A stretch of DNA of 64,000 nucleotides from the human T2T-CHM13v2.0 reference genome, Homo sapiens. The stretch lies in NCBI RefSeq assembly GCF_009914755.1, contig NC_060926.1. One strand, written 5' to 3'. The position numbers and the translations under genes are program-made. Positions 41,001 through 60,689 of this stretch are shown one piece after another (positions within the stretch are counted from its first letter, which is position 1; the number at the start of each line of letters is the position of its first letter). The notes beneath the pieces were generated by a model. The model had not been told where the DNA came from and did no database searches. It worked only from the letters and a program-made list of their open reading frames with translations.

Positions 41001-41279
41001 ACCTACCAGCTGACTGTCAGACTGCCTCACAACTACCCCACCGTTAATACCTTCCTTTTATAGATCTGGAAAATTAGTTTTCTTTAGAAGAGTCAAGTAA
41101 CCTGCCAAAATGACAGCTAGTAAGTGAGAATTAGACTTGAACCCAAGCCTGTGTGACCTCAAAGAATGATTAAGAGGTCTCTACCACCATACCACATAGC
41201 CCACCGAGTAGAGTCTTGTGTTGCTCACTGTCTTGTCTGGGTCAGGCCTCTTTATTATTTGTTTATTTATTTTTTCTAG

Positions 41280-41621
<342 letters not shown>

Positions 41622-44166
41622 CAGACTGTGTCTTTTCTGTATTCCCAGTGCCTAATCTGGAATGGAGCACATGATAAATAGCATTCATTCCTTTATTTAT
41701 TCTGCAAACTCTTAATGAACACCTGCTATGTGTCAACCTTTGTATTAGGGCATAAACAGATAAATAAGGCAGGATAGTCACCCTTAAATAACCCACAGTT
41801 TACTGGAAGTCTCAGTCTCTCCCTCTGTCTCTCTCTTGCTCACACACATATATAATTATAATGATAAAGATATGTACCAGATGCATCTAGTTGCATTTAT
41901 TTGAAGAGGTGAGGTAGCTGAGAGTGATAATGGTATGTGTATCCTTTACAGGATACTACCAAACTGTTTGCTATAGTGACTATACCATTTTGTTTCCTTA
42001 CCAGCCGTGTATGAAAGTTTTAGTTGCTCCACATCCTCATCAGCACTTAGTATTGTCAGTTTTTTCTTTGTGCCATTCTAATAGGTGTATAGTCGTAGCT
42101 CATTGGGCTTTTAATGTGAATTTTTCTAGTGATCAATCTTTTCACATGCTTTTGAGTATCTTTGCATATGCGTACTTGCCATCCATAGATCTTCTTTGGT
42201 GAAGTGGACCTTTAGCCCATGTTTTTAATTGTGCTATTTATTTTCTTACTTGTTGATATGACTAACTTTTAACAGAACTTTCTTTTCAGGAATTTGTTAA
42301 TTAGGTTTCAAGTACATTTGATATAAACAGTTTATAAAATGCTTCAAACAACATGCTCTAGGAGTGGTTGCCAGGGAAAACTAAAATGGACTTTGATCCC
42401 GACTGGGGCAAGAGTGATGAAGATGAGGTTTTTTCTGTGCTTTTCCTCAGTGTGATTTTGAAACAGGAGGACAGAGCAAAGGGAGAGAAATAGGAGCCAA
42501 AAAGCTCAGGAGGGACTTTGATCTTCAGTCTAAAAGGGAAAACAGGGATTCTCTTGGTTGCCAGTGGAAGCTGGAAGGATTAGACACGCCAAACGGATGG
42601 TTTACTCTGATGAGAAAAGCAACTGGACAACAACAGCAAAAAACACTGCAAGGCCCAATTCCCATCCTTTTCAGCCCAAAATTGGAGGAGGCCAGACCAA
42701 TGGGAGGTTTCTGTCACTGAAGATGAGGTCACATTATTTTGTCATCCAGACTGATCTAAGCAGATACTTTTAGGAAAGGTAAGAATGCCTTGATCTATGC
42801 CTAGATATTTACAATAGGCGGCAATTTTTGACATTTATGTTGTTACGCTAATAAATTGGTATTTTTTAAAAAAATATTTGGCTGATTATGTAAAAACTGT
42901 TTTGGGAAGGAGTCTATATAAAGCTAAAACACTCCCTGCCTCCTGTCTCTGACTTGCAGGCCTTGTGCCATTGGGAAAAAAAACAGCCAGGCCTATGGTT
43001 TAAGGCCTTCTGGGCATCTGACTACCTGCACCCCAGCACTGTCTACACAGTTTGTGTACATGAGTATTTTTATGGGGAATGGTTACAGAGCTCTTCTCAG
43101 CCTCAGGGAGGCCTATAATCCCCAAACGGCTGTGAACCGCTGTTCTAGAGGGTGAGATTGGCAAATTCACTACAGTGATGGCACAGCAAATGTTCCATGT
43201 CTCAGCTTGAAAACATTATGGCAGGAAGTCCTGCGTCAGATGAAATTAGGTATACATTAAAGTAGTGGGATTGAGCCCAGAGCCTTTTCAACTCTTGTAT
43301 ATAACAGCTTTGATTCTCTTCCTGACATAATGAGTCTATAATAATTGGTCAAGAATTTTTTTTTTTTACTTATTAAAAGAACCACCTCAGATAATATGTT
43401 CCTGATTATGTAACTATAATTATAAAAAATCGTATATTATTGTGTTTAATAAAAATCAAAATTTATAGGCTGGGTCTAATATATGCATCTTGCCATGCTG
43501 TATTTTGGAGAAGACAGTAGAGTGTAAGCTATGATCTTTTTGAGAAGACAGGAGCCACGTGCGCAGACCATGAAGTCCAGAGGAGGGTGGTGGAGGGAGA
43601 GAGTGTTTCAGGCTAGAATGGCCGGTTTTAGCTGTGGATGGAAAGGTAGTATTTGATGGACCAAGAGGAGAGGAAATCTGTAAGCAATTGCTCAGAGGAG
43701 GAGGAAGTAGAAGAAGGAATTTGGCTGAGCATGTTTTACATGAAGTATTCCTATTAGGGGAGTAGCCATAAGTGAGGGTGAGAATGCAACACAGGTGAAA
43801 TAACATTTTGGGAAATTTATCTGGTGGTGGAGGACCAGGCGGTGGAGGACCAGGCATAGAGAAGGGAAGAGACTAAAATGAGAGACGGTGTTTAAATAGT
43901 TAATGCAATCACATAGTCATGAAGAGGGAGGGCTTAAGCAAAAAGGAAGGGATAGCTAGGAGAGCCCTTGTAGAGGGTGGAGAAGGCAGGCTGTGCCCTA
44001 TTCAAGGAAAGGGAGGCAGTGGGTCAGGTGATTCCACTGACTCTTAGACTCTATATTCACAGTATAGATTTCTGTTCGTTTTTTTTTTTTCTTCAAAAGC
44101 CTTTAAAAATGTTCAAAAGGAAAGCATTTAGACCTTTTATGAAATAGAGTTGTTAAAGGAAAAAGT

Positions 44167-47100
44167 ATTTTTTTTTTTAATTATACTTTAAGTTCTGGGA
44201 TACATGTGCAGAACATGGCAGGTATACACATGCCATGGTGGTTTGCTGCACCCATCAACCTGTCATCTACATTAGGTATTTCTCCTAATGCTATCCCTCC
44301 CCTAGCCCCCTACCCACTGACAGGCCCTGGTGTGTGATGTTCCCCTCCCTGTGTCCATGTGTTCTCATTGTTCAACTCCCACTTACGAGTGAGAACATGT
44401 GGTGTTTGGTTTTCTGTTCCTGTGTTAGTTTGCTGAGAATGATGGTTTCTAGCTTCAGCCATGTCCCTGCAAAGGACATGAACTCATCCTTTTTTATGGC
44501 TGCATAGCATTCCATGGTGTATATGTGCCACATTTTCTTTATCCAGTCTATCATTGATGAGCATTTGGGTTGATTCCAAGTCCTTGCTATTGTGAACAGT
44601 GCTGCAATAAACACGTGTGCATGTGTCTTTATAGTAGAATGATTTATAATCCTTTGGGTATATACCCAGTAATGGGATTGCTGGGTCAAATGGTAATTCT
44701 GGTTCTAGATCCTTGAGGAATTGTCACACTGTCTTCCACAATCGTTTAACTAATTTACATTCCCACCAACAGTGTAAAAATGTTCCTATTTCTCCACATC
44801 CTCTCCAGCACCTGTTGTTTCCTGAGTTTTTAATGATTGCCATTCTAACTGGGATGAGATGGTATCTCATTGTGGTTTTGATTTGCATTTCTCTAATGGC
44901 CAGTGACGACGAGCTTTTTTTCATGTGTGTTGGCCGCATGAATGTCTTCTTTAGAGAAGTGTCTGTTCATATCCTTTGCCCACTTTTTGATGGGGTTGTT
45001 TGGTTTTTTTTTCATGTAAATTTGTTTAAGTTCTTTGTAAATTCTGGATATTAGCCCTTGTCAGATGGATAGACTGCAAAATTTTTCTCCCATTCTGTAG
45101 GTTGCCTGTTCACTCTGATGATAGTTTCTTTTGCTGTGCAGAAGCTCTTTAGTTTAATTAGATCCCATTTGTCAATTTTGGCTTCTGTTGCCATTGCTTT
45201 TGGTGTTTTAGTCACGAAGTCTTTGCCCATGCCTATGTCCTGAATGGTATTGCCTAGGTTTTCTTCTAGGGTTTTTATGGTTTTAGGTCTTACATTTAAG
45301 TCTTTAGTCCATCTTGAGTTAATTTTTGTATAAGGTGTAAGGAAGGGGTCCAGTTTCCGTTTTCTGCGTATGGCTAGCCAGTTTTCCCAACACTATTTAT
45401 TAAATAGGGAATCCTTTCCCCATGCTTGTTTTTGTCAGATTTGTCAAAGATCAGATGGTTGTAGATATGTGGCATTATTTCTGAGACTTTTGTTCTGTGC
45501 CATTGGTCTGTATGTCTGTTTTGGTACCAGTACAATGCTGTTTTGGTTACTGTAGCCTTGTAGTATAGTTTGAAGTCAGGTAGCATGATGCCTCCAGCTT
45601 TGTTCTTTTTGCTTAGGATTGTCTTGACTATGTGGGCTCTTTTTTGTTTCCATATGAAATTTAAAGTAGTTTTTTCTAATTCTGTGAAGAAAGTCAATGG
45701 TAGCTTGATGGGGATAGCATTGAATCTATAAATTACTTTGGGCAGTATGGCCATTTTCACAATACTGATTCTTCCTATCCATGAGCATGGAATGTTTTTT
45801 CCATTTGTTTGTGTCCTGTCTTATTTCCTTGAGCAGCGGTTTGTAGTTCTCCTTGAAGAGGTCCTTCACATCCCTTGTAAGTTGTATTCCTAGGTATTTT
45901 ATTCCCTTTGTAGCAATTTTGAATGGGAGTTCACTCATGATTTGGCTCTCTGTCTGTCTATTATTGGTGTATAGGGATGCTTGTGATTTTTGCACATCGA
46001 ATTTGTTTCCTGAGAATTTGCTGAAGTTGCTTATCAGCTTAAGGAGATTTTGGGCTGAGACGATGGGGTTTTCTAAATATACAATCATGTCATCTGCAAA
46101 TGGAGACAATTTGACTTCTCTCGTCCTATTTGAATACCCTTTCTTTCTTTCTCTTGCCTGATTTCACTGGCCAGAACTTCCAATACTATGTTGAATAGGA
46201 GTGATGAGAGAGGGCATTCTTGTCTTGTGATGGTTTTCAAAGGGAATGCTTCCAGTTTTTGCCCATTCAGTATGATATTGGCTGTGGGTTTGTCATAAAT
46301 AGCTCTTATTATTTGGAGATATTTTCCATCAATACTTAGTTTATTGAGAGTTTTTAGCATGAAGAGGTGTTGAATTTTGTGGAAGGCCTTTTCTGCATCT
46401 ATTGAGATAATTATGTGGTTTTTGTCGTTGGTTCTGTTTATGTGATGGATTACGTTTATTGATTTGCATATGTTGAACCAGCCTTGCCTCCCGGGGATGA
46501 AGCCGACTTGATCGTGGTGGATAAGCTTTTTGATGTGCTGCTGGATTCAGTTTGCCAGTATTTTATGGAGGATTTTTGCATTGATGTTCATCAGGGATAT
46601 TGGCCTGAAATTTTCTTTTTTGTGTGTCTCTGGCAGGTTTTGGTATCAGGATGATGCTGGCCTCATAAAATGAGTTAGGGAGGTGTCCCTCTTTTTCTAC
46701 TGTTTGGAATAGTTTCAGAAGGAATGGTACCAGCTCCTTTTTGTACCTCTGGTAGAATTTAGCTGTGAATCTGTCTGGTCCTGGACGTTTTTTGGTTGGT
46801 AGGCTATTAATTACCGCCTCAATTTCAGAACTTGTTATTGGTCTATTCAGGGATTTGACTTCTTCCTGGTTTAGTCTTGGGAGGGTGTATGTGTCCAGGA
46901 ATTCATATTTCTTCTAGATTTTCTAGTTTATTTGCATAGAGGAAGTCAAATAGTATTCTCTGATGGTAGTTTGTATTTCTTTGGGATCATTGGTGTTATC
47001 CCTTTTATCATTTTTTATTGTGTCTATTTGATTCTTCTCTCTTTTCTTCTTTATTAGTGTGGTTAGTTGTATATCTATTTTATTAATCTTTTCCAAAAAC

Positions 47101-48066
47101 CAGCTCCTGGATTCATTGATTTTTTGAAGGGTTTTTTGTGTCTCTATCTCCTTCAGTTCTGCTCTGATCTTAAGTTATTTCTTGTCTTCTGCTGGCTTTT
47201 GAATGTGTTTGCTCTTGCTTCTCCAATTCTTTTAATTGTGATGTTAGGGTGTTGATTTTAGATCTTTCCTGCTTTCTCTTGTGGGCATTTAGTGCTATAA
47301 ATTTCCCTGTACACACTGCTTTAAATGTGTCCCAGAGATTCTGGTACGTTGTGTCTTTGTTCTCATTGGTTTCAAAGAACTTACTTCTTTCTGCCTTAAT
47401 TTCGTTATGTACCCGGTAGTCAATTCAGGAGCAGGTTGTTCAGTTTCCATGTAGTTGTGCGGTTTTGAGTGAGTTTCTTAATCCTGAGTTCTAATTTGAT
47501 TGCACTGTGGCCTGAGAGACTGTTTGTTATGATTTCTGTTCTTTTGCATTTGCTGAGGAGTGTTTTACCTCCAGTTATGTGGTCAGTTTTAGAATAAGTG
47601 CAATGTGGTGCTGAGAAGATTGTATATTCTGTTGATTTGGGGTGGAGAGTTCTGTAGACGTCTGTTAGATCTGCTTGGTCCAGAGCTGAGTTCAAGTCCT
47701 GAATGTCCTTGTTAATTTTCTGTCTCGTTGATCTGACTAATATTGACAGTGGGGTGTTAAAGTCTCCCACTATTATTGTGTGAGAGTCTAAGTCTCTTTT
47801 AGGTCTCTAAGAACTTGCTTTATGAATCTGGGTGCTCCTGTATTGGGTGCATATATATTTAGGTTAGTTAGCTCTTCTTGTTGCATTGATCCCTTTACCA
47901 CTATGTAATGCCCTTCTTTGTCTTTTTTGATCTTTGTTGGCTTAAAGTCTGTTTTATCAGAGACTAGGATTGCAACCTCTGCTTTTTTTTTTGTTTTCTA
48001 TTTGCTTGGTAAATATTCCTCCATCCCTTTATTTTGAGCCTATGTGTGTCTTTGCATGTGAGATGG
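44167..48066 (-). mobile_element. L1PA (L1PA7/8-like), 5'-truncated, defective ORF2
   Basis: Poly-T and L1PA 3' UTR. ORF2 fragments include the endonuclease (HLTCKDTHRLKIKGW; GDFNTPLS), RT (FADD) and C-terminal CWRGC..HCWWECK. TSD ggaaaaagt(a/t)ttt at 44158 and 48065. Confidence 0.95.
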
Positions 48067-49869
48067 AAAAAGTTTTTTTTTAAACCACAAGGGATGAACC
48101 TTGCATAAATTAAGAGCCGTAGCATTGTTGCAGGCATTGTGTTGTTACCTGACACCATTTTGGAGTGGTTGATTCAGAGATCTGTTGTAAGGATAAGAAT
48201 AAAACAGACATTCAGAAGCAGAGGAGGATTTCAGGCAGTGACTGGTCTTCATGGAAAGAGATGAAGAGCACTTATTTAGTACAAGGAGCTGTGTGACTGT
48301 AACTGAACCCATTCCTTAGAGTACTGGCTGAGTGCTAGCAGGAAAGACATCCAGAACCTTCAGAGGATTCTGGGAGTGCAGTAAAAATCCTTCAAATTTC
48401 TCTTGGAGAGGAATAATCCTGTTGTCTTCTAATAGTAGAGAAAAACAGGTGACTGGATTAGAAGTGGTTATTAAAGTTAAATGTTGACCAGGCACATTGA
48501 TGCCTAATAGCATTGCTTTCCACAGCAAAGTACTCACACTCAGAGGAGCATGAGACATTCCACTAAGGCTGCAAGAAGAAAAAAAAGAATAGATGTTGTA
48601 CTTATGTTTACTTCTGTCTAAAAATAGAAATCAACCTGTATAATAGTCGACATCCAGACTGACCCTGGTCCTTCCTGTGGTCCAGATGCCAGAAGATCTG
48701 CAGCCTTGCTCACAGCTGGACATTTCGAGGGAAGCGTGTGTGCTCCGTTGACAGGGGCTGACTCTTCAGAGAGGATTATCTCTACCTGATTAGGTAGACT
48801 TACAGATGATAGGATATTAAATAGCCAAAAAATCTTACAGTATTTAATAATGAGATTGAGAATGATGCTGATAATCTCTAATACCACAGATGCTAATGAG
48901 CAGATATCTTAAAGGAACTGTTGAATGTGAGTTAAGAATGTTTTTTATAAAAGACAAACATTTTGAAATTGCTGGCCTTCTGCATGATATTTAGCTATGA
49001 GTGGTCTTGTTGCCCTGCAGATAATTTAAAAGTTAATACTCATAATCTGTCCTTTCAAAGTAGAGGTGATACATTAACAATGAATAAGAAAGTAACCTTT
49101 AAAAAAATCTGGTGATCTGGTGCTACACAGAGAGCACTTGTAAAATAAATGTACAGAAATAGTTCCATTGTGACATGATTTTCATTCCTAAAAACAATAG
49201 GTGTGCGTTACATGTTAACTCATATTTGCATACTTAAAAATATTGGAAACAAACTAAAATCTTCCGGAGAGTTTAAAACCCAATAAAAATTTGTCAAAAT
49301 GTAACATTTTCCAATAAGTTTGTAAGACCAATGAAATGACATTGGGGAAAATGGAAAGTTACTAATTTTAGCCAAAAAGCTTTTGAGTAGTTAGTGTATG
49401 AGATTGAAATATGAGTGTTATGACTTTGTAAGTACATTTCTTCCATTTGCATCAATGTGTCTTTTTCAAATATCTCTTTTGAGCTAGGCCGGACACTAAA
49501 ACTAAATATTAACATATACTGGACTTAAAATGAGACCTCTGAATTGCCATATCAGTAAGTGTTAAACCAAGATTAAAAAAATGAAACCCATTCAATCATG
49601 CCGCAGTCACTAAGAAACATTTTTAGTGATAAAAAGGGTTAATAAAGGAAAACTACTTAAAAAAATTTAAATTTCATTTTTATCTCAGCCTTCCAAATTT
49701 CTATTTTTGAGTATGTTTTGTGATGTACATATTGTATAGACAGTGTAGTTTTAGAATATATACTCAATCAGAAGTGTTAACAGCAAAGCTAGAAGGAACT
49801 TTGAGATTCTCTAATCCTGGTATAGAACATGCATATAATTTGTAAATAATGTATATTTTGGAGGTTAGG

Positions 49870-50169
49870 CTTTTTTTTTTCTTTTTTTTTGTTTTGAATG
49901 AGACAGAGTCTTGCTTTGTTGCTCAGCCTGGAGTGCAGTGGTGTGATCACAGCTCACTGCAGCCTGGGACTCCTGGGCTCAAGCGATCCTCCCACCTCAT
50001 CCTCCTGAGTAGCTGGAACTATAGGTGTGGGCCACTGCGCCCAGCCAATTTTTACAAATTTTGTGTAGAGCCAGCATCTTGCTTTGTTGCCTAGGTTGGT
50101 CTCGAACTCCCGGCCTCAAGCGATCTTCCTGCCTTGGCCTCCCAAAGTGCTGGGATTATAGGCGTAAGC
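49870..50169 (-). mobile_element. AluJ
   Basis: 'cacagctcactgcagcc', 'ctcaagcgatcctccc'; head slightly truncated and followed by a separate T tract. Confidence 0.87.
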
Positions 50170-50308
50170 ATTTTTTTTTTTTCTTTTCTTTTCTTTTTTT
50201 TTTTTTCCCTAGAACGGTGTATGATCCAAATAGGTGGCCATTGGTCTACAGACAAAAACCTGCTGAGAACCTTTTAATAAAATCATCCTGGTTTCTGAGG
50301 GGTTGAGG

Positions 50309-50711
50309 AATGTTCTGTTTCCAAGCCCAGGACTCTTAGAAACTATCTGTAGCACATTCAGGTGACAATATGGGTTGAGATGTATCTATAGGACCTAACA
50401 GGTAGAGGAACTTCTATTCTTTGAGTAGATGTCAAAAGGTAAAAAGTAGGATCGGAATCTTTCTCCATGTGGAGAAATTTCAGATTCCAAGAAAGAGTAC
50501 ACACAACTCACCTGTACATTAGACACCAAAAAAATGCTCAAATTAATGAACTATTATGGAGTATTTAAAAACATAGAGAACTCTGCTTTAAAAAAAATAG
50601 GAGAGGATCCTTAAGTTTAAAGCAAAGTAGTACTTCAAAACTTCATTAATTTTGAAGTATTACTCTGCTACAGATAGTGTCTAAGAGTCCTGGGCCTGGA
50701 AACAGAACATT
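50309..50711. repeat. Interrupted inverted repeat (46-bp plus 20-bp arms)
   Basis: 50309-50354 is the reverse complement of 50666-50711 (44/46); 50621-50640 is the reverse complement of 50650-50669 (18/20). Confidence 0.9.
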
Positions 50712-50751
50712 TGGGTTCAGGTTTCCTCTTTATTCCATTCTGGCTTTATGA

Positions 50752-51060
<309 letters not shown>

Positions 51061-51171
51061 TGAAACTCTTGAGGTTTCCTCAGCCAGAAAATGAGCATGG
51101 TAATTCTTCACACCATGATTGTGAAGCTCCATGAGTTGGGGCAGAAGGAAGTGCTGTAAAAACTATAGTCC

Positions 51172-51470
51172 CCGCCCGTTGTGGTGGCTTGTGCCTGTGA
51201 TCACAGCGCTTTAGGAGGCTGAAGGAAGAGAATCATTTGAGGCCAAGAGTTCGAGACCAGCCTGGTCAATGTAGGCAGACCCAGTCTCTACAAAAAATAC
51301 AAAAATTGGCTGGGTGTGGTGCTGTGTGCCTGTTGTTCTAGCTACTTGGGAGACTGAAGTGGGGGGATTACTTGAGTCCAGGAGTTTGAGGCTGCATGAG
51401 CTGTGATTATGCCACTTTAACTCCAACCTGGGTTTCAGAGCAAGATCGTGTTTCTAAAATAAGAAAAAAA
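51172..51470 (+). mobile_element. AluJ with (CA)n after the tail
   Basis: 'gaggccaagagttcgagacc', 'ttgagtccaggagtttgaggctgc'; TSD aaaact(a/g)tagtcc. Confidence 0.88.
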
Positions 51471-52917
51471 ACACACACACACACAAAACTGTAGTCCTCT
51501 GCAATATTACTGAGTGAGGATTGCCCGAGACTTGAGAGGCAGTTAGGCAGCCCCCTTCATTCTGACTGTGGTGGTCCTCTCCTAATTGAGACTGAGAATT
51601 CTCTAGATGTGCCTGTTAAATATTTGCATGGCCCCGGAGTGCCATTCAGAGCTGGATTTTGTTTCTGATGGCTCAGTTGCCCTTGAGGCTGCTCTTGGGT
51701 TCCCAGTGCTTGTGTTGCCAAGTTGTGTGAAGTGTGCAGAGCTGCTCTGGGTTTGCAGAGCTGGCTTCATGTGTTGTGGAGAGGGCCCTGAGATGTTGGT
51801 GACTCATTCAAAGCCACTTTATGTCTGCTTCTACATCTTGCTCAATCTGCTAGGCTTACTACCATCTAAGTCCTAGAAGGCCTATCAACTCTCCCCAGGA
51901 AATGTAGAACCCAAAGACATAGGCACATACTTTCATTTCCTTTTTAAATGAATACAGTCTCTTTAAAAGTTTTATTTGAATACCGATCCATGGTTTGCAC
52001 AAGCCATTTGAATTTTAAACAGATGTGTGTGCAAAGCTGGGAGTCAGCATTGCATGTCTCAGTCAAGTTTTATAGTCATTGACTTTTAGGGTTACAGCCT
52101 GGTCTCATAGCTGTGCCTTGGGTGGAAAGGCTGGTAAGGACTTCGATGTACTTTCCTGTCCAGAGTTTTGAGACTTTAGCCAGGACTAGGGCAGCTTTCT
52201 GGGTGTCCAGTGGAGGGCCACGTCATTCGACCGTTGCTATGGGAAAAACCCATGAGCTCTCTCATTCCAAAGTTTACCGATTGCCAAATACTTGGGTGTG
52301 TGGTATTTGGAAAAAATATTTAGTGATGCAGTGATTCTTTGAAGAGGTGTCCTCTAATGTTTACTTTTTAAAATGGTAAACCAATTTTAATATTGTTCAT
52401 ACCTAGCTAAGACTGAATTAGATTATTTAAACATATTTAAACATCATCTCTGTAAGTGAATGGGAAAATAGGAACCAGACCAAACCCCTATTATTGAACG
52501 CTAAGAGAAATGGATTTTTTTAAAAACCGAAATAATTAAAATCTAGTGTTACATGTGAGTCTAGGGACTGGATTTACTATTTGGCAACTACATATTTTGT
52601 TGGCAATAAACTTATTGTCTAAAAGAAAATGCGTAGAGCCAAGATAGAGGCCCAAGTAAAGAAGAAAGTGTGATCCTAAGGGAAATTGGTTTATTGAGGA
52701 GAATGTATCTTCATATACTATTTGTAAGTTTTCTGTATGGAGGATTTCTCCCTTTTCACCCTTGTATTTATTTAATCGTTTAGTTATAGTACCTTAGCCT
52801 CATTTGTTTTATTCTTCAGGTTATATTATTATTTTCTTGCTCAAATTGTTCCATCTTTAGTCATTGTAAGCTCTTTCAGGTTGACTCCCGGATCAAAATA
52901 TAGTTTTTAAAACAGGC

Positions 52918-53208
<291 letters not shown>

Positions 53209-53214
53209 TAAAAG

Positions 53215-53501
53215 ATTTCAGTTTTTAAGGGCAGTTTTAGGTTCACAGCAAAATTGGAGAGGAAGGTCCAGACTTCCTATATACCCTGGCCCCTGCAACC
53301 CCTCTCCCCGTCCCATAGGCATAGCTTCTCCCATTATCAACATCTACCAGAGTGGTACATTTGCTACAAATGATGAACCTACATTGACACATCATTATTC
53401 CCCAAAGTCCTAGGGTTCACCCTTGGTTTTGTACATTCTGTGGGTTTGGACAAATGTATAATGACATCTATCTATCATTATAGTATCATAATGAGTATTA
53501 T
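53215..53501 (-). mobile_element. L1MC-like 3' end, host of the ERV; continues at 58030-58070
   Basis: 'gcagttttaggttcacagcaaaattg..gtacattctgtgggtttggacaaatgtataatgacat..tagtatcata' continues as 'cactgtcttaaaaatcctctgtgctct' after the ERV. Confidence 0.8.
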
Positions 53502-53578
53502 TGAAAGGTGACAGCGTGCTGGCAGCCCTCGCAGCCCTCGCTCGCTCTCGGTGCTTCCTCGGCCTCGGCGCCCAGTCT
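53502..53578 (+). mobile_element. Inverted 77-bp LTR12 U3 terminus
   Basis: TGAAAGGTGACAGCGTGCTGGCAGCCC... is 70/77 identical to the reverse complement of 57953-58029. Confidence 0.93.
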
Positions 53579-54862
53579 ACTAGATGAGTATTTGCCGTCT
53601 GGGTTTCCTTGATTAGAGGGGCCTGGCTATTTTGCTGTATCCGGGGATCCATAGTCGGCAAAAGCCAGTAATTCCAAGGAACCCCCACAAACTGTTTTAA
53701 TGTCTTAGGGCAAGGATAAGCCAGTATAGGCTTTATTCATTCCTTGCTGAGGGCCCTGGTCCCTCTGGCTAAGATTAGGCCTAGATATTTGACCTGCTGT
53801 AGGCAAAGCAGGGCCTTCGACCTAGACACCTTGTACCCTTGATTAGCTAGAAAGTTCAAGAGATCTAGAGTAGCCTGCTGGCACGAGGCTTCCAAACTGG
53901 TAGCCAAAATTAAATCATCCACATATTGAAGGACCAGAGTGCCTGGACTTGAGAAGTGGCCTAGATCTTGGGCCAGTGCCTGACCAAATAACAGGTGAGG
54001 GCTATCCCTAAACCCCTGGGGCAAGACCATCCACATAAGTTGGGACGTGTGATCTGTGGGATCCTCAAAGGCAAAGAGGAACTGGGAGTCAGAGTGCAGG
54101 AGAATACAGAAGAAGGATCCTCGAAGTCCAGAACTGTGAACCATTCTGTTTCCTCTGGTATTTGAGAGACCAGGGTATAGGGGTTGGGTACAACTGGATA
54201 TAGAGGAATTACTGCCTCACTGATGAGTCTAAGATCTTGCACTAGTCTCCACTGACCGTTCGGTTTTTGTACTCCTAGAATTGGGGTGTTGCAGGGACTG
54301 CTGCATTTCCTTACTCAGCCTTGAGCTTTCAAATGTTTAATAATATTCTGTAATCCTTTATGAGCTTCAGGCCTTAAGGGATATTGCCTTTGATAAGGAA
54401 AAATGGTGGGATCTTTTAACCTGATTTGGACTGGGCGGGCATTTTTTAGCCTTCCAAATTGTCCTTCCAATGCCCAGACTTCAGGGTTGATTCCCTCCTC
54501 AAGTAGGGGACAACAAATGGGTAACTTGTTCCCCATATTCATGTAGATAATAGCTCCAGCCTTGGCTAATATATCCCTCCCTAATAAGGTGTGGGACTTA
54601 CAGGCATAACAAGAAAGGCATGTGAAAAGAGCAAAGTCTCCCAATTAAAACTGAGGAGGTGTGAGAAACACCTGGTTACAGGCTGTCCCAGGATTCCTTG
54701 GGTGGTAACGGACCTTGAGGACAGTCGTCCAGGACAGGAGATTAACACTGAGAAGGCCGCACCAGTGTCCAGGAGGAAGTCAATTTCCTGGCCCTCAGTA
54801 GTTAAATCTACCCGGGGCTCAGTGAGGGTGATGACATGAGCCGGTGTTTGCCCCAGGCACCC
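53571..54862 (-). pseudogene. HERV9 pro-pol remnant (protease and RT, frameshifted, truncated before RNase H and integrase)
   Basis: Protease EIDFLLDTGAAFSVL (~54740-54790), LLGRD, QDLR, LPQGFRDSP, LQYVDDL, YLG. Confidence 0.92.
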
Positions 54863-56325
54863 TCAGTCCTGTTGTTGGATCATCTGGTTGGGGGCTTCTG
54901 ACCCAGGGAACCTTCATCCTCTGGAGCAGTGCACCTTCCAGTGATTGCCTCGGCATAGTGGACATGGACGAGGGGGCAGCTTTTTCTCACTGGACAGTCT
55001 TTTTTAAGGTGTCCTAGTAAACCACACTGATAACAAGCCCCACCAGATGATTGGCCTGCTCCATTCTCTGTCCTCTCTGAACCACCAAGGTTTGTTTGTC
55101 TGAGGGCCATGACTAAGGCTGCAGCCTTTCTCTGATCTCGCTTTTCCTTTTGGGCCTGTTCCTCTTGGTCCTTATTATAGAACACCGAGGTTGCAAGGTT
55201 TAACAATGCCTCTAGATTTTGTTCAGGGCCCAGGGCTTGCCTTTGGAGCTTTCTCCTGATATCTGTGGCTGATTGGGTATTAAACTTATCTTTTAGAATC
55301 AATTGACCCTCGAGTGATTCGGGTGACAGGGGAGTATGTTTTCTTAAGGCCTCCCATAGCCACTCGAGGAAGGCAGAAGAATTTTCTTCCTTTCCCTGAG
55401 TTATGGTGGACATCATTGAATAATTCATGGGCTTTTTTTCTAATTCTCCTTAGTCCTTCTAGAACACAGGTCAACAGATGTTTACAACTCCAGTCCCCAT
55501 GATCTGAGTCAAGGTCCCAGTGGGGATCCATACTGGGGATAGCTTGCTGACCAGTAGGGAATTTGTCCCTTTCTTTGGCTGTCATTCTATCATTTACTTG
55601 ACTAAGATACCAGGTGTCTCCAAACTCTTGGGCTGCAGCTAAAGCCGCATTCTTTTCGTTAAAGGCCAGGGTTTGATCTAACAGTAGCATGACATCTCTC
55701 CAAGTGAGGTCAAAGGTTTGCCCTAGACCCTGTAGGACATCTATGTACCTATCAGGATCATCTGAAAACTTCCCCAGGTCTGCCTTCATCTGCTTTAAAT
55801 CAGAGCAGGAGAAGGGGACATGTACCTGGGTAGGGCCAAATTCCCCTCCCCCTACAGCTTGAAGGGGACATAACCCATAGCCCGTGGGTTTTTGTGGTCC
55901 TTTGGAGATTTCTTTGCTTATTTCCTTCTGGGCAGGGGAGATGAGAGGATGATTATCATTAATAGGAAGGGGAGCTATAGGGAGGCTAGGATATGGGGGT
56001 AAGCTGAGAGGTCCTCCTGTGGGATGTAACTTGTAAGCTTTGCATAGTTGTGTATTCTCCCTCAATGAAAAGAAAGCTTGGACATAAGGTATTTCACTCC
56101 ATTTGCCTTCCCTCTTACAGAAAAAGTCAAGCTGCAGGATGATAGTATTGTAATTTGTACTTCCCTCAGGTGGCCGTTTTTCCCCATCAGAGAGAGAATA
56201 TTGGGGCCAAGCCGTAGCGCAGAAAAAAATGAGCCACCTCTTTTTCAGGGTTTGTGGGTCGAATTGGTCCCAATAGCTTAGGATGCATTTCAAGGGTGAG
56301 CCTGTGATGCCTGAGTGTTTCCCAT
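54863..56325 (-). pseudogene. HERV9 gag remnant (frameshifted)
   Basis: ATG GGA AAC ACT CAG (MGNTQ) at 56325, [14 protein letters not shown] major-homology-like region, zinc knuckle CYQCGLLGHLKKDC, QQQD-TGA stop at 54863-54865. Confidence 0.92.
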
Positions 56326-56370
56326 CTGAAAGACAAAACCGCCTGCAGTTTTGTTTTGTTTTGTTTGCAT

Positions 56371-56546
56371 TTATTTGCTTTTGGCTTTGTGGCTTTCGGT
56401 TTTCTTTGGTAACAGAATGGCCTGGATGTTAGGCAAAATGCCGCCCTGGGCGATGGTGACTTTGCCCAGCAGCTTGTTTAGTTCCCTGTTGTTGCAAATT
56501 GCCAGCTGGAGGTGATGAGGGATGATGCGCGTCTTCTTCTTGTCCC
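56371..56546 (-). pseudogene. Histone H2A C-terminal fragment (H2AC20/HIST2H2AC-like) inside the ERV leader; may be the annotated H2ACP2 (unverified recollection)
   Basis: [56 protein letters not shown]. By my alignment to remembered H2AC20 it is 49/56 identical, including the distinctive [11 protein letters not shown] end. No ATG, poly(A) or histone stem-loop. Confidence 0.9.
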
Positions 56547-56559
56547 TTCGTGGTTGCAA
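56542..56559 (-). other. Retroviral primer-binding site, tRNA-Arg type
   Basis: TTGCAACCACGAAGGGAC, 3 nt after the LTR end; canonical form TGGCGACCACGAAGGGAC. Confidence 0.88.
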
Positions 56560-56562
56560 AAA

Positions 56563-58029
56563 TGTGTCCAGATTTGGCGGGTTCTTGGTCTCACTGACTT
56601 CAAGAGTGAAGCCGCGGACCCTCGCAGTGAGTGTTATAGTTCTTAAAGGTGGCGTGTCCGGAGTTTGTTCCTTCTGATGTTCAGATGTGTTTGGAGTTTC
56701 TTCCTTCTGGGTTTGTGGTCTCGCTGGCTCAGGAGTGAAGATGCAGACCTTCGTGGTGAGTGTTACAGCTCATAAAGGCAGTGTGGACCCAAACAGTGAG
56801 CAGCAGCAAGATTTATTGCAAAGAGCAAAAGAACAAAGCTGCCACAGTGTGGAAGGGGACCCGGACGGGTTGCCACTGCTGGCTCAGGCAGCCTCCTTTT
56901 ATTCTCTTATCCGGCCCCACCCACATCCTGCCGATTGGTCCATTTTACAGAGAGCCAGTTGGTCTGTTTTACAGAGAGCCGATTGGTCCGTTTTGACAGG
57001 GTGCTGATTGGTGCGTTTACAATCCCTGAGCTAGACACAAAAGTTCTCCACGTCCCCACTAGATTAGCTAGATACAGAGTGTCGATTGGTATATTTACAA
57101 ACCATGAGCTAGACACAGAGTGCTGATTGGTGCATTTACAAACCTTGAACTAGAGACAGAGTGCTGATTGGTGTATTCACAATCCCTTAGCTAGACATAA
57201 TGATCCAAGTCCCCACCAGATTAGCTAGATACAGAGTGCCGATTGGTGCATCCACAAATCCTGAGCTAGAGACAGGGTGCTAATTGGTGTGTTTACAAAC
57301 CTTGAGCTAGATACAGAGTGCTCATTGGTGTATTTACAATCCCTTACTAGACATAAAGGTTCTCCAAGTCCCCACTAGACTCAGGAGCCCAGCTGGCTTC
57401 ACCCAGTGGGTCTCCCACTGGGGCCGCAGGTCGAGCTGCCTGCCAGTCCCGCACCATGCGCCTGCACTCCTCAGCCCTTGGGCAGTCGATGGGACTGGGC
57501 GCCGTGGAGCAGGGGGCAGCTCTCATCGGGGAGGCTCAGGCCGCACAGGAGCCCACGGTGGGGTGGGGGAGACTCAGGCATGGTGGGCTGCAGGTACCGA
57601 GCCCTGCCCCACAGGGAGGCAGCTAAGGCCTGGCGAGAAATAGAGCACAGAGCTGGTGGGCCAGCACTGCTGGGGGACCTGGCGCACCCTCTGCAGCTGC
57701 TGGCCCAGGTGCTAAGCCCCTCACTGCCCGGGGCCGGCACGGCTGGCCGGCAGCTCTGAGTGCGGGGCCGCCAAGCCCACGCTCACCGGGAACTCTAGCT
57801 GGCCTGCAAGCACCACGTGCAGCCCCAGTTCCCGCCCATGCCTCTCCCTCCACACCTCCCCGCAAGCCGAGGGAGGCGGCTCCGGCCTCGGCCAGCCCAG
57901 AGAATGGCTCCCATGGTGCAGCGGCGGGCTGAAGGGCTCCTCAAGCACGGCCAGAATGGGCGCCAAGGCCGAGGAGACGCCAAGAGCGAGCGAGGGCTGC
58001 GAGGGCTGCCAGCACGCTGTCACCTCTCA
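56563..58029 (-). mobile_element. LTR12 (C/D-type) 5' LTR, 1467 bp
   Basis: Starts TGAGAGGTGACAGCGTGCTGG and ends CCAAATCTGGACACA; GC-rich U3, tandem CCAAT repeats, R-region AATAAA at 56812-56817. Confidence 0.95.
56889..57350 (-). promoter_or_regulatory. LTR12 enhancer/promoter: tandem CCAAT (NF-Y) and GATA repeats with AATAAAA TATA-equivalent
   Basis: About 9 ATTGG motifs in ~41-bp-type repeats (56931-57330); 'GGATAAGAGAATAAAAGGAGGCTG' on the - strand at ~56889-56911. Confidence 0.75.
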
Positions 58030-60689
58030 ATATCACTGTCTTAAAAATCCTCTGTGCTCTACCTCATCATAAAAGTAAGAAACCTAGGAGTGTTTCTCTC
58101 TTTGGTTTCCAATTACTTTGGCCTGGGATAAACTGGGACTTCTCAATTAATTGCGGGCCATTTAACAGTTAATGAGAAGCATTTCATGGTCTTTCTAAAA
58201 CTCTTGTAGACTAATAATAGCTATGATGAAGTATATAGAAATTCATTAATATTTATAAAAGTAATAAACATTGAGTAATAGAATTATGTTAGCATTAAAA
58301 TTCAATTATTAATTACATTATTATTTCAACTAATTTTGCAAAAGACCATTGACTATAGGTTCTTAGAGGCTAAAAGAAAATTAGAAGTCTACCACCCCAC
58401 CTCCTTTGTTTTACAGATGAGAAGCTAAAGCTTCCAATGTTTAAGTGATTTGCCTAATCGAAGCCAGGACCAAAACTCATCTAATAACGTCTAAACGTAG
58501 TACCTTCCACTGAATCAAAGAGTTGGGTCTTCCTGTTTTCCCTTTTTCTCCCCCCTTCTTTTCAAGAATTAATATTCTGAAGTATTTTCCAGATATGGAA
58601 TCACCAATTTATAATGATAAATATGCAAGAAAATCAAGATAAATTTTGTGTATTATCTTACATTTGTGTTTTAAATTGATAGCTGCTATCAATGGCATGT
58701 TAAAAAATACTTTAGTGAATTTCATATTTTGATACAGCTTTCAGCACAGATCAGCAATTTCTCTCAAGTTTTTTGATTATACGTTTGATTCCAGAAATTC
58801 TGTTTCACTGGTACTAATTCAATGTGTTTACTCTTCTTTTGAGAATGGTACCTTACTATAAATGTCGCAGGAGAAAAAACATTGCCATTTAAGCTACAGA
58901 AGTGCTGAATATGACCTGCACGTGTTGAAATGGCAGTGCTGCGGGAGAGGTTGGAAAATGTGTGATGCTGTCTTATAATTTTAGCTCGGGTTTATGCAAA
59001 TGTGGGCATTTATCTTGTTATTTTCACAGCCATACACATTTACTGCCGCTTGAAGTTATCCTTACAAGTGATCTTCATTAAATTAAGTTTGTCTTACAGG
59101 AGCAGAAGGAAAAGGATGATGTGAATTTCACCTTTAAAAGGCAGCACTAGGCAATGCAACATTTAAGAAGTGTTTTTTGCCTGTGCCCATAAAAAGCTAT
59201 ACCACTTTGTTGATGGATTTGCTATTTTGTGTCCTATTAAGTATAAAATGTGACCATATATTTTGGATTCCAAGGTCTTTTCTGGTTTGTTGAACACATT
59301 AGTGCTTATGATGATGATTTAAATTAGTTTTAATGTACTTGGGTAGTCAAGCATACAGTGCTTTGAAGCCACTAAGGGAGAAAAAGAAGAGATATTTCAG
59401 CCTTCCCCAGTAATGAGACCCATAAATCAAAAGAACGAACATGGAAACTTCAAGCAAGCCTAGGGATCTAATTTCAAACACCTTAAAAGAGACTCCTTTT
59501 TTGGTTTAGGCTTGCCATGTCCGTGGTGCCCAGTGGAAGGGCTGAGCTGAAAAATTTGGATAAAAAACAGAGAACCTCTATAGGATTAAAACAATGGAGC
59601 CAGACGCTCTCAGTGTTAGCCTTTGGATTTGAGAGGCTTGTGTTTAAGAAGTCTGGGCCTGAAGAGGTGGAAATACAGGGGGTCAGATTCAGTTACAGAT
59701 ACATACATGTTCAAATACCAAATACATGTCATTTAAGGGAACCATAAGATGACTTTGCAAGAGGGAGACTTTTTTCCATGAAATAGTTATAGTAGACTTT
59801 TCAAACTAACTCTGAAGTGAAATTTTGAGCATAAAAGCTTTTCAGCTGACAAAGAGAAATGGCATGAATGTCTGAGAAAAAAACCAGACACATCCCTAAA
59901 ACAACAGAGAAATGCCTTCTAGACTTTAGATACATCTATGGCAAATAGGAAGACAAGCTATTTCTAGACCTCTGGCAAGAAGACTGGCCTTTTACTCAGT
60001 TCTTAAAGAAAATAGCTAAGAGAAGTTTGGAATAAGAAATCCAAGTTCTTCTACATGTTGTTGGTTCGGGCAATGTCAAAGATTTTTTTCATAGCTTGTC
60101 TCTTGGAGGCTGACCTTGGACTGTGCACATGGACCTATTTTTAAACTGTAGACTCCATTTCACTCCCACATATTTTACCCTTCTACTGTTCAAGTGCTAA
60201 AACCAGGGATTATTTAAGTTAGCTTACTCTCTGTTGCAGGCTGGGATGAGAGTTTAGGATTCCAAAATTGTGTTAGAAGTGGGTTGAGAGGAAATAAATG
60301 TGGAGAGGCTAAATGACAGTTGTGTTATGGATCCTTTTCCTTTTAATTTCCCCCTATTTTTAAAAAACTCACTGGAGTCCTAGAATACACACAGATAATT
60401 GACGTATCTCTAGGGGTATTTGCATTCAAGGTAAGTTTCTTTTGATTTTAGTAACATGTGGCTTTTGATTATTATGGAGGACAATTTAAGCCCAAAGTAT
60501 TATTTTGCCATTTAGGTTTGTATCTTAATTTGGGCTGTGCTGAAATCATCTTGGGGGGTGTGTGTGTATGTATGTGTGTGTGTGTTTGGGGGGGATGTGT
60601 GTGTATGATATATGTGGGTAGGTGAGATATGGAGGGAGGCAGGGAGGGAACTTTTAATACCGTTCGTTGTACTGAATTTTAAATTCAGA

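What the first reader, a model, noticed from the sequence alone, without database searches (positions are those of the whole stretch)
56326..56562. Fossil retroviral transduction: histone H2A mRNA captured exactly at the end of the primer-binding site
Seen on the - strand: LTR end (..GGACACA), TTT, 18-nt Arg PBS ending GGGAC, then 56 codons of H2A with its TAA, then ATG-CAAACAAAAC..TTTCAG and the gag ATG. The fragment is co-oriented with the virus and has no poly(A), TSD or stem-loop, so it does not look like an L1 processed pseudogene. Only ~45 nt of leader remain before gag. The PBS-terminal GGGAC reads in frame as H2A R-D and matches the native CGG GAC codons as I recall them, giving a 5-nt microhomology; the 3' junction falls in a CAAA run. 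Known: plus-strand strong-stop DNA ends at PBS nucleotide 18, and aberrant second-strand transfer gives deletion-with-insertion proviruses; replication-dependent histone mRNAs lack poly(A) and are poor L1 substrates. Inference: minus-strand synthesis jumped from the leader to a co-packaged H2AC20 mRNA, and strong-stop DNA then landed on that cDNA via GGGAC. The amino-acid changes (R>H, R>C, D>N, two V>I) fit neutral CpG decay.
Basis: partly seen in the sequence, partly recalled or inferred. Interest (0 to 1): 0.88.

Follow-up and report, generated by a model that had tools for sequence, protein, structure and literature searches.

The report
Histone H2A patch in aberrant HERV9
A piece of histone H2A messenger RNA sits inside a broken ancient retrovirus copy exactly where viral DNA synthesis normally changes strands, and the whole copy looks like a frozen record of one botched round of viral reverse transcription.

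Summary
On the minus strand an LTR12 ends at 56563 and is followed by TTT and the 18-nt tRNA-Arg primer-binding site (56559-56542). Then come 180 nt of histone H2A type 2-C sequence (56546-56367) holding 58 codons, TAA and ATGC of the 3' UTR. The last 41 nt of HERV9 leader and the gag ATG (56325) follow.

The parent gene on chr1 reads CGG GAC, so GGGAC is a true 5-nt overlap. It is also the only GGGAC in the mRNA model. About 1.2-1.4 kb of leader is missing. No other genome copy carries this junction.

New here: the element is not a normal provirus. After gag, protease and most of RT it ends at 53571-53578 in an inverted copy of the first 77 nt of its own U3. That joint uses an 8-nt overlap. 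Both outer ends are therefore U3 nucleotide 1.

The two flanks are exactly contiguous in an old repeat. They carry either a 4-bp duplication (TTAT/ATAT) or retained terminal AT dinucleotides. So the 4.5-kb structure was made before insertion, as an aberrant reverse-transcription product.

An RNA source and the ape orthologues could not be tested. This is a new variant of a known kind, of moderate to high interest.

The parts
58030..58033 (.). Right flank 4-mer ATAT. It is either the right copy of a 4-bp target-site duplication, or AT of host sequence plus a retained viral terminal AT.
   Evidence: In six other copies of the flanking repeat the two flanks are adjacent. Five of them read ..GAGTA/ATA/GTG-(G/T)TTT-CAC.., and the window has 4 extra nt.
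56563..58029 (-). Complete 5' LTR (LTR12 type, 1467 nt). It starts TGAGAGGTGACAGCG and ends GGACACA.
   Evidence: Aligns to the LTRs of the chr13 and chrX HERV9 copies. Its start was defined against 5 other LTR starts.
56560..56562 (-). TTT spacer between U5 and the PBS.
   Evidence: Same spacer in all 12 comparison rows.
56542..56559 (-). 18-nt primer-binding site (tRNA-Arg type). Its last 5 nt, GGGAC (56546-56542), are shared with H2A.
   Evidence: There are 301 genome matches to the 18-mer at up to 2 mismatches, against 155 for the control.
56367..56546 (-). H2A type 2-C fragment: GGGAC, 56 further codons, TAA (56373-56371) and ATGC of the 3' UTR. The H2A-only part is 56541-56367.
   Evidence: 169 of 180 bases identical to G000:C1:149011327 onward. 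Pfam Histone_H2A_C at E 3.9e-18.
56326..56366 (-). Last 41 nt of HERV9 leader (AAACAAAAC...GGCGGTTTTGTCTTTCAG). The A at 56366 is common to both templates.
   Evidence: Homology with other HERV9 copies resumes at 56366 or 56361.
53571..56325 (-). gag (MA, CA, NC), protease and RT up to just past the RVT_1 domain, with frameshifts and stops. There is no RNase H, IN, env, PPT or 3' LTR.
   Evidence: 93.5-93.9% identity to the chr13 and chrX copies over 2.8 kb. Pfam Gag_p30, zf-CCHC, RVP and RVT_1. No 3' LTR was found anywhere in the window, and no further HERV9 internal sequence in 40000-60000.
53502..53578 (+). Inverted copy of U3 nt 1-77 of the LTR. Bases 53571-53578 (CCCAGTCT, CCCATTCT in the 5' LTR) overlap the complement of pol AGAATGGG.
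   Evidence: 73 of 80 in BLAST and 70 of 77 by direct count against the element's own 5' LTR start. The pol and U3 alignments overlap at the joint.
53498..53501 (.). Left flank 4-mer TTAT, the partner of 58030-58033.

Best explanation
The 4528-bp element at 53502-58029 is one aberrant HERV9 reverse-transcription product that entered the germline as a preformed linear DNA.

Inferred order of events:
1. A plus-strand DNA started at the polypurine tract, so its 5' end is U3 nucleotide 1.
2. After 77 nt its 3' end, CCCATTCT, paired with AGAAUGGG in the RT region of a genomic RNA.
3. It was then extended in minus sense through protease, gag and the last 41 nt of leader.
4. At the 5' edge of the A/C-rich tract just before gag, synthesis moved to a co-packaged histone H2A type 2-C mRNA. 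The 3' UTR of that mRNA carries the most similar stretch of the whole mRNA.
5. Synthesis ran back 180 nt to the only GGGAC in that mRNA.
6. There the new 3' end, GTCCC, paired with the 3' end of a complete plus-strand strong-stop DNA. That DNA stops at PBS nucleotide 18, ...GGGAC. Both strands were then extended.

The result is LTR-PBS-H2A-leader remnant-gag-pro-RT-inverted U3, with a U3 terminus at both ends. It was inserted into an old repeat without loss of host bases.

Shown:
- the anatomy;
- the three joints and their overlaps;
- the single-copy status;
- the contiguity of the flanks.

Inferred:
- the order of the jumps;
- RNA as the template;
- the role of strong-stop DNA at the PBS joint (about 0.65 given the rest).
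For: 1. 5' joint. HERV9 homology in other copies stops at 56542 or 56541, and H2A homology starts at 56546. The parent has CGG GAC. GGGAC, and even GGAC, occurs once in the 482-nt mRNA model, at the junction.

2. 3' joint. In 12 rows (11 loci) the native leader reads ...GGGAG|AAACAAAACAAACCAAAAC..GGGCGGTTTTGTCTTTCAG-ATG. The parent 3' UTR reads ATGC|AGACAAACAAACCAAGACCAAAGGC. The best local alignment of the mRNA against 1.3 kb of leader sits at this spot in both reference copies.

3. The leader is about 1180-1368 nt in those rows, so about 1.2-1.4 kb was replaced by 175 nt.

4. The inverted U3 nt 1-77 is joined to RT through an 8-nt overlap. CCCATTCT lies at LTR nt 70-77.

5. Both flanks belong to one old repeat and are collinear and adjacent in 6 other copies. 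The window has exactly 4 extra nt, TTAT and ATAT. A chrX HERV9 copy has a 4-bp TSD, GAAC.

6. Ages agree. H2A shows 11 of 180 differences, all on the pseudogene lineage, with 5 at non-CpG sites. The inverted U3 differs from the 5' LTR at 7 of 77 sites over two lineages.

7. A second kind of joint at PBS nt 18 exists in HERV9. Copies on chr7 and chrX restart in U5 right after GGGAC, as a 124-nt duplication bounded by GAAGGGAC.

8. Patching of host RNA by template switching is documented. I saw passages of PMC4997597 and PMC5131818.
Against: - The parent gene has no intron, so nothing in the sequence proves an RNA template.
- The leader/3' UTR similarity is no stronger than chance. Shuffled mRNAs reach its score in 25 of 300 and 54 of 300 trials.
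- The strict overlap at the 3' joint is 1 nt. It is 7 nt only if a G:T pair is allowed.
- The 4-bp duplication is 3 of 4 identical. It can equally be read as no duplication, with an AT dinucleotide retained at both viral ends. Integrase action is therefore not proven.
- The H2A patch could in principle have been added after insertion, independently of the inverted-U3 joint.
- Only 100 of 301 PBS matches were examined. Only 40 of 1368 candidates were scored in the copy search.
- No ape or monkey orthologue could be examined.
Confidence: 0.75

Rival explanations
1. The H2A piece was inserted after integration, with loss of about 1.2 kb of leader. One route is L1 ORF2p priming from the T-rich plus strand (GTTTTGTTTT...) on the A-rich part of the H2A 3' UTR, with 5' truncation and end-joining at GGGAC. 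The other is double-strand-break repair that copied a stray cDNA or DNA piece by microhomology.
For: The geometry fits target-primed reverse transcription. The plus strand reads ...GTTTTGTTTTGTTTTGTTT and is followed by antisense H2A. Short overlaps at both joints also fit end-joining. The source could be DNA, since the gene has no intron.
Against: There is no poly(A), no TSD around the piece and no stem-loop or mRNA 3' end. The would-be nick site is TTT/C in the native leader, which I recall to be a poor L1 endonuclease site. The 5' joint coincides exactly with PBS nt 18. By my estimate that is roughly a 6-in-1300 coincidence if breakpoints were random in the leader. The same element carries a second rearrangement that predates insertion.
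Confidence: 0.12
2. The patch was made during reverse transcription by two ordinary template switches, as in LTR-mediated retroposition: leader to H2A mRNA, then H2A back to the PBS of genomic RNA through GGGAC. Plus-strand transfer was then normal. The position at the PBS end is a coincidence of where the overlap lay.
For: This is the published general model. I saw the passages and the Figure 4 legend of PMC5131818. The sequence outcome is identical.
Against: It does not explain why the return lands on the last nucleotide of the PBS out of about 1.2-1.4 kb of available leader. From general knowledge, the PBS in genomic RNA is paired with the tRNA primer and is a poor acceptor. HERV9 copies with the U5-PBS duplication show another joint at PBS nt 18, which suggests a recurrent role for the strong-stop 3' end.
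Confidence: 0.2
3. The inverted U3 piece belongs to a second, independent LTR12 insertion in the opposite orientation. A later deletion fused it to the RT region of a normal provirus.
For: LTR12 elements are numerous, about 5,000 according to the abstract listing of PMC11853044.
Against: The host flanks next to the two U3 ends are exactly contiguous in the old repeat, with only 4 extra nt. Two separate insertions plus a deletion would not leave that. The joint has an 8-nt overlap. The piece differs from the element's own 5' LTR start at 7 of 77 sites.
Confidence: 0.03
4. H2A is a normal part of a HERV9 subfamily, so the observation reflects an inherited feature or the consensus.
For: None found.
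Against: None of the 12 comparison rows carries it. None of the 32 HERV9/HERV-W-type PBS sites among the 100 examined carries it. Apart from the window itself, all 16 H2A-only matches lie at other loci and none includes the LTR or PBS part of the query.
Confidence: 0.01

Closest known systems
LTR-mediated retroposition (Tan et al. 2016, PMC5131818), including the HERV-K/FAM8A1 transduction (Jamain et al. 2001, cited there). I saw passages only.
   Same: A partial host transcript replaces an internal part of an LTR element. Short overlaps mark the joints. There is no poly(A) and no L1-type TSD.
   Different: Here the upstream joint is at the exact end of the PBS. The element also carries an inverted U3 end in place of a 3' LTR. 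The parent has no intron, so intron-loss screens would miss it. The paper reports only three human cases. Its Supplemental Table 8 could not be seen: 2 files were searched with no hit and 1 was not searched.
Host-RNA patches and non-homologous recombination in experimental retroviral replication (review PMC4997597, section 5.1 passages and reference list: Hajjar and Linial 1993; Sun et al. 2001; Duggal et al. 2007).
   Same: An encapsidated host RNA unlinked to the provirus is used as a template during reverse transcription.
   Different: Those are cell-culture events. This one is a germline fossil, roughly 20-35 million years old by my rough estimate.
Defective HIV-1 proviruses with inversions and asymmetric LTRs (PMC9278108, passages).
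   Same: Rearranged proviruses are attributed to misalignment during reverse transcription, with plus-strand strong-stop DNA completing the product.
   Different: The passages I saw show no host insert at the PBS and no element bounded by two U3 ends.
L1-made processed pseudogene.
   Same: It is a cDNA-like copy of part of an mRNA.
   Different: It lacks the poly(A) tail, the flanking TSD, the full 3' end and an endonuclease-type site.

Membership tests
LTR-mediated retrocopy / retroviral host-RNA patch | The host fragment is flanked on both sides by parts of one LTR element, with an internal part of that element replaced. | tested here: met
   The PBS lies upstream and the leader remnant and gag lie downstream. 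About 1.2-1.4 kb of leader is missing.
LTR-mediated retrocopy / retroviral host-RNA patch | Microsimilarity at the switch points. | tested here: met
   5 nt (GGGAC) at the 5' joint. At the 3' joint, 1 nt strictly, or 7 nt with one G:T pair.
LTR-mediated retrocopy / retroviral host-RNA patch | RNA origin, shown by intron loss. | not testable with these tools
   The parent coding region is one uninterrupted frame, so there is no intron to lose.
LTR-mediated retrocopy / retroviral host-RNA patch | The chimera was made before insertion, so element-level insertion marks surround the whole structure. | tested here: met
   The flanks are contiguous in 6 other copies of the host repeat, and the window has 4 extra nt. 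Whether these 4 nt are a TSD or retained termini is open.
L1-mediated processed pseudogene | A 3' poly(A) tail at the mRNA end. | tested here: not met
   The copy stops 4-5 nt after TAA, upstream of the stem-loop, and has no A tail.
L1-mediated processed pseudogene | A target-site duplication of several to about 20 bp around the copy. | tested here: not met
   No direct repeat flanks 56367-56546. Instead there is a deletion of about 1.2 kb.
Canonical HERV9 provirus | A tRNA-Arg-type PBS after an LTR12, followed by gammaretrovirus-like gag-pro-pol. | tested here: met
Canonical HERV9 provirus | Two LTRs in the same orientation, with a U3 start at one end and a U5 end at the other. | tested here: not met
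   There is no 3' LTR. The far end is an inverted U3 nt 1-77.
Oncogene-type transduction by read-through | The captured gene is linked to the integration site and carried by a replicating, helper-dependent virus with several copies. | tested here: not met
   The parent is on another chromosome, and no second copy of the joint was found.

The most novel reading that the evidence does not exclude
This locus is a germline fossil of a single reverse-transcription complex. It preserves both physical ends of HERV9 plus-strand strong-stop DNA: U3 nucleotide 1 as an inverted terminus, and PBS nucleotide 18 fused to host cDNA. It shows that an extinct primate retrovirus packaged a replication-dependent histone mRNA. 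It also shows that a DNA bounded by two U3 ends could enter the germline. Together with the U5-PBS duplications at other HERV9 loci, it suggests that mis-landing of the strong-stop 3' end was a recurrent source of HERV9 structural variants.
Probability: 0.5. Interest if true: 0.7.

Novelty: new variant of a known kind. Interest (0 to 1): 0.62.

Why it matters
Capture of host RNA by LTR elements is documented, but reported human cases are very few. Tan et al. give three, in the passages I saw.

This case adds a histone gene, a class that intron-loss screens cannot detect. [quoted passage not shown] The mechanism can therefore be read from the sequence and does not have to be assumed.

It explains the origin of the annotated pseudogene H2ACP2 and corrects its 3' boundary.

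It also gives a search image for finding other aberrant reverse transcripts among endogenous retroviruses: sequence other than leader right after PBS nucleotide 18, and inverted U3 termini.

Tried and rejected
- A search for a 3' LTR in the window found none. The only other LTR-like piece was the inverted 80-nt start.
- An inversion of the element's own 3' LTR was considered. The sequence after the inverted U3 is host repeat and shows no polypurine tract or env, so I rejected it.
- L1 retrotransposition of a HERV9 transcript, as in HERV-W pseudogenes, was rejected. The element starts with a full U3 and has no poly(A).
- Autointegration was rejected because, from general knowledge, it yields circles and not a chromosomal insert.
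- The similarity between the leader and the H2A 3' UTR was tested as a possible sign of common origin. Its score lies within the range of shuffled sequences, so I claim only its position at the joint.
- Literature:
  - 'H2ACP2' gave 0 papers.
  - 'HERV9' with 'H2A' gave 6 papers whose titles and abstract openings do not concern this locus.
  - 'histone pseudogene' showed 0 occurrences in the 12 papers listed, of 395 found with the HERV9/ERV9/LTR12 terms.
  - Vargiu et al. (PMC4724089) has no occurrence of 'transduc' or 'histone'.
  - PMC12220202, on tRNA-linked HIV deletions, was seen as outline and abstract only and does not bear on this case.

Full report
**Observation**

On the minus strand an LTR12-type LTR ends ...GGACACA at 56563. 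It is followed by:
- TTT at 56562-56560.
- An 18-nt primer-binding site, TTGCAACCACGAAGGGAC, at 56559-56542.
- An open H2A reading frame, [58 protein letters not shown], with TAA at 56373-56371.
- ATGC, an A/C-rich run, TTTCAG and ATGGGAAAC, with the ATG at 56325-56323.

The 58-residue peptide matches Pfam Histone_H2A_C at E 3.9e-18.

A search of the window's own genome gave one full-length match, the window itself. The best H2A match was G000:C1:149011327-149011537. Its 129-aa product carries the PDB name Histone H2A type 2-C. The gene symbol H2AC20 is my recall.

The remaining H2A matches lie on chr1, chr6, chr11 and chr12, and none includes the LTR or PBS part of the query. Only 40 of 1368 candidates were scored, but a second LTR-PBS-H2A copy would have ranked at the top.

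**The 5' joint**

Other HERV9 copies align with the window through 56542 or 56541, the last PBS base. The H2A alignment starts at 56546.

The parent reads GCT CGG GAC AAC and the PBS reads CGA AGG GAC. GGGAC is therefore a 5-nt overlap, with A against C just before it.

In a 482-nt model of the mRNA (45 nt upstream of the ATG to 5 nt past the stem-loop), GGGAC and even GGAC occur once, at this position.

**The 3' joint**

In 12 comparison rows from 11 loci (L017-L022 and L025-L030; L025 and L026 are one locus) the PBS is followed by 1180-1368 nt of leader. The leader ends ...GGGAG|AAACAAAACAAACCAAAACCGCGGGCGGTTTTGTCTTTCAG-ATGGGAAAC.

The parent 3' UTR reads TAA ATGC|AGACAAACAAACCAAGACCAAAGGCTCTTTTTAGAGCC. 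The window reads TAA ATGC|AAACAAAACAAAACAAAACTGCAGGCGG.

The crossover is therefore right after ATGC. It has one strictly shared base, or seven if a G:T pair is allowed.

The best local alignment between the mRNA and 1.3 kb of leader plus gag start falls at this very spot in both reference copies. Its score is not beyond shuffled controls, which reach it in 25 of 300 and 54 of 300 trials. I therefore claim only the position.

RefSeq's H2ACP2 span (56335-56546) and BLAST's 192/212 run about 31 nt into HERV9 leader because of this resemblance. The true H2A stretch is 56546-56367, with 169 of 180 bases identical.

About 1.2-1.4 kb of leader was replaced by 175 H2A-only bases.

**The element as a whole**

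No 3' LTR exists in the window. Against two other copies (chr13, chrX):
- The LTR spans 58029-56563.
- Internal homology runs from 56366 to 53571 or 53559 at 93.5-93.9% identity.
- No further HERV9 internal sequence appears in 40000-60000.

Pfam finds Gag_p30, zf-CCHC, RVP and RVT_1 in the broken frames.

At 53502-53578 the plus strand carries the first 77 nt of the LTR, starting TGAAAGGTGACAGCG. This piece is inverted relative to the element. It matches the element's own 5' LTR start at 73 of 80 bases in BLAST and 70 of 77 by direct count.

The true LTR start was fixed by comparison with five other LTR starts. It is TG at 58029-58028 and at 53502-53503.

The pol and U3 alignments overlap at the joint. 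Pol reads ...TAGTAGAATGGGAACC and the reverse complement of U3 reads AGAATGGGCGCC. That is an 8-nt overlap, now with one changed base. CCCATTCT lies at LTR nt 70-77.

**Flanks**

The left flank, 53212-53501, belongs to an abundant old repeat, with 4193 candidates at about 75% identity. I recall its sequence as resembling an L1 3' end. No tool named it.

The first 38-41 nt of the right flank match four other loci at 92-97%.

In six other copies (L036, L038, L042-L045) the two flanks are collinear and adjacent. Five of them read ..GAGTA/ATA/GTG-(G/T)TTT-CAC.., and one has a 2-nt gap there.

The window reads ..GAGTA-TTAT| at 53498-53501 and |ATAT-CACTG.. at 58030-58033. That is four extra bases and no loss of host sequence.

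A chrX HERV9 copy has a 4-bp TSD, GAAC, so a 4-bp duplication with 3 of 4 bases still identical fits.

An equally good reading exists. In the two 3' LTR junctions shown the polypurine tract ends ..GGGGGG AT|TGAGAGG. AT before TG at both ends could therefore be the unprocessed terminal dinucleotides, with no duplication.

On either reading a preformed linear DNA with a U3 terminus at each end was inserted as one unit. A later inversion or deletion cannot place U3 nucleotide 1 against an exactly contiguous flank.

**Mechanism**

The steps below are inferred from the standard model of retroviral reverse transcription. Plus-strand strong-stop DNA starts at U3 nt 1 and stops after copying 18 nt of the tRNA primer. 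Both of those ends coincide with unusual features of this element.

The simplest path is as follows:
1. A nascent plus strand of 77 nt paired through CCCATTCT with AGAAUGGG in RT-coding RNA.
2. It was extended through protease, gag and 41 nt of leader.
3. It moved to an H2A mRNA at the edge of the A/C-rich tract.
4. It reached the only GGGAC of that mRNA.
5. It paired there with the 3' end of a complete strong-stop DNA, and mutual extension followed.

The inverted-U3 step is new here.

**Supporting observations**

- All 11 H2A differences lie on the pseudogene lineage, since a paralogue agrees with the parent. Six are CpG transitions.
- Non-CpG divergence of the H2A piece is about 3%. That is similar to half the non-CpG divergence between the inverted U3 and the 5' LTR. 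The numbers are small, so this is consistent with one age but does not discriminate.
- The 18-nt PBS has 301 genome matches at up to 2 mismatches, against 155 for the control. I fetched the 100 listed sites.
- Of those 100, 32 have a HERV9/HERV-W-type U5 end. They divide as follows:
  - 28 continue with the usual leader start.
  - 2 have a shorter repeat variant.
  - 2 (chr7:158.06 Mb and chrX:116.66 Mb) restart in U5 directly after PBS nt 18.
  - None has cellular sequence.
- The chrX copy shows a 124-nt U5-PBS tandem duplication bounded by GAAGGGAC. This is a second kind of joint at the strong-stop 3' end.

**Rivals**

- A post-insertion L1 or repair event fits the strand geometry and the overlaps. 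It lacks every L1 hallmark, and it leaves the PBS-end coincidence unexplained (about 6 in 1300 by my estimate). It also leaves the independent evidence for an aberrant transcript unexplained. I give it 0.12.
- A plain double template switch back to genomic RNA, the model of PMC5131818, gives the same sequence but does not predict the PBS end. I give it 0.2, as a variant of the main reading.
- Two separate LTR12 insertions plus a deletion is excluded by flank contiguity. I give it 0.03.
- H2A as part of HERV9 is excluded within the limits of the searches. I give it 0.01.

**Comparison with print**

- Host-RNA patches made during reverse transcription are known from experiments (PMC4997597, passages).
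- LTR-mediated retrocopies with microsimilarity are known across animals, with three human cases including FAM8A1 (PMC5131818, passages). The supplementary table listing them could not be seen.
- HIV-1 proviruses with inversions and asymmetric LTRs are attributed to misalignment in reverse transcription (PMC9278108, passages).
- I found no paper on H2ACP2 or on a histone fragment in HERV9. The library lacks most subscription journals.

**Verdict**

The element is a new variant of a known kind: a host-mRNA patch in an endogenous retrovirus. [quoted passage not shown]

The open points are the RNA source, integrase against end-joining at insertion, and the primate orthologues.

Noticed in passing
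window 56335-56366: The RefSeq span of H2ACP2 (56335-56546) runs about 31 nt past the real H2A end (56367) into native HERV9 leader. That leader tract resembles the H2A 3' UTR.
   Followed up: yes
L025/L026 (G000:C23:116659158-116659360) and L058 (G000:C7:158060823): These HERV9 copies have a tandem duplication of the last 124 nt of U5 plus the PBS. The sequence restarts in U5 directly after PBS nt 18, and the unit is bounded by GAAGGGAC. Both loci share the same joint, so they may descend from one event.
   Followed up: partly
L023 (G000:C1:86646712-86649789): Another rearranged HERV9. A truncated LTR, the PBS and about 260 nt of leader are followed by inverted leader-gag sequence, and an inverted gag-pol block lies upstream.
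   Followed up: no
L046-L145 (100 PBS sites): The same 18-nt Arg-type PBS follows at least four different kinds of U5 end, so it serves several ERV groups. Some copies jump from ...CTCCAAAG straight to a later part of the element or to ATGGGAAAC, which looks like copies of spliced RNA.
   Followed up: no
window 56995-57379: The 5' LTR holds an internal direct repeat of about 229 nt, 57379-57155 against 57220-56995, at 84% identity.
   Followed up: no
window 56290-56325: The frame opened by the gag ATG stops after 11 codons ([11 protein letters not shown]). The long gag frame (380 aa, 55286-56428) is in another frame, so there is a frameshift just after the start.
   Followed up: no
window 56134-56635: The hub table lists a RefSeq 'enhancer' feature covering U5, the PBS, the H2A piece and the gag start. 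I did not examine it.
   Followed up: no
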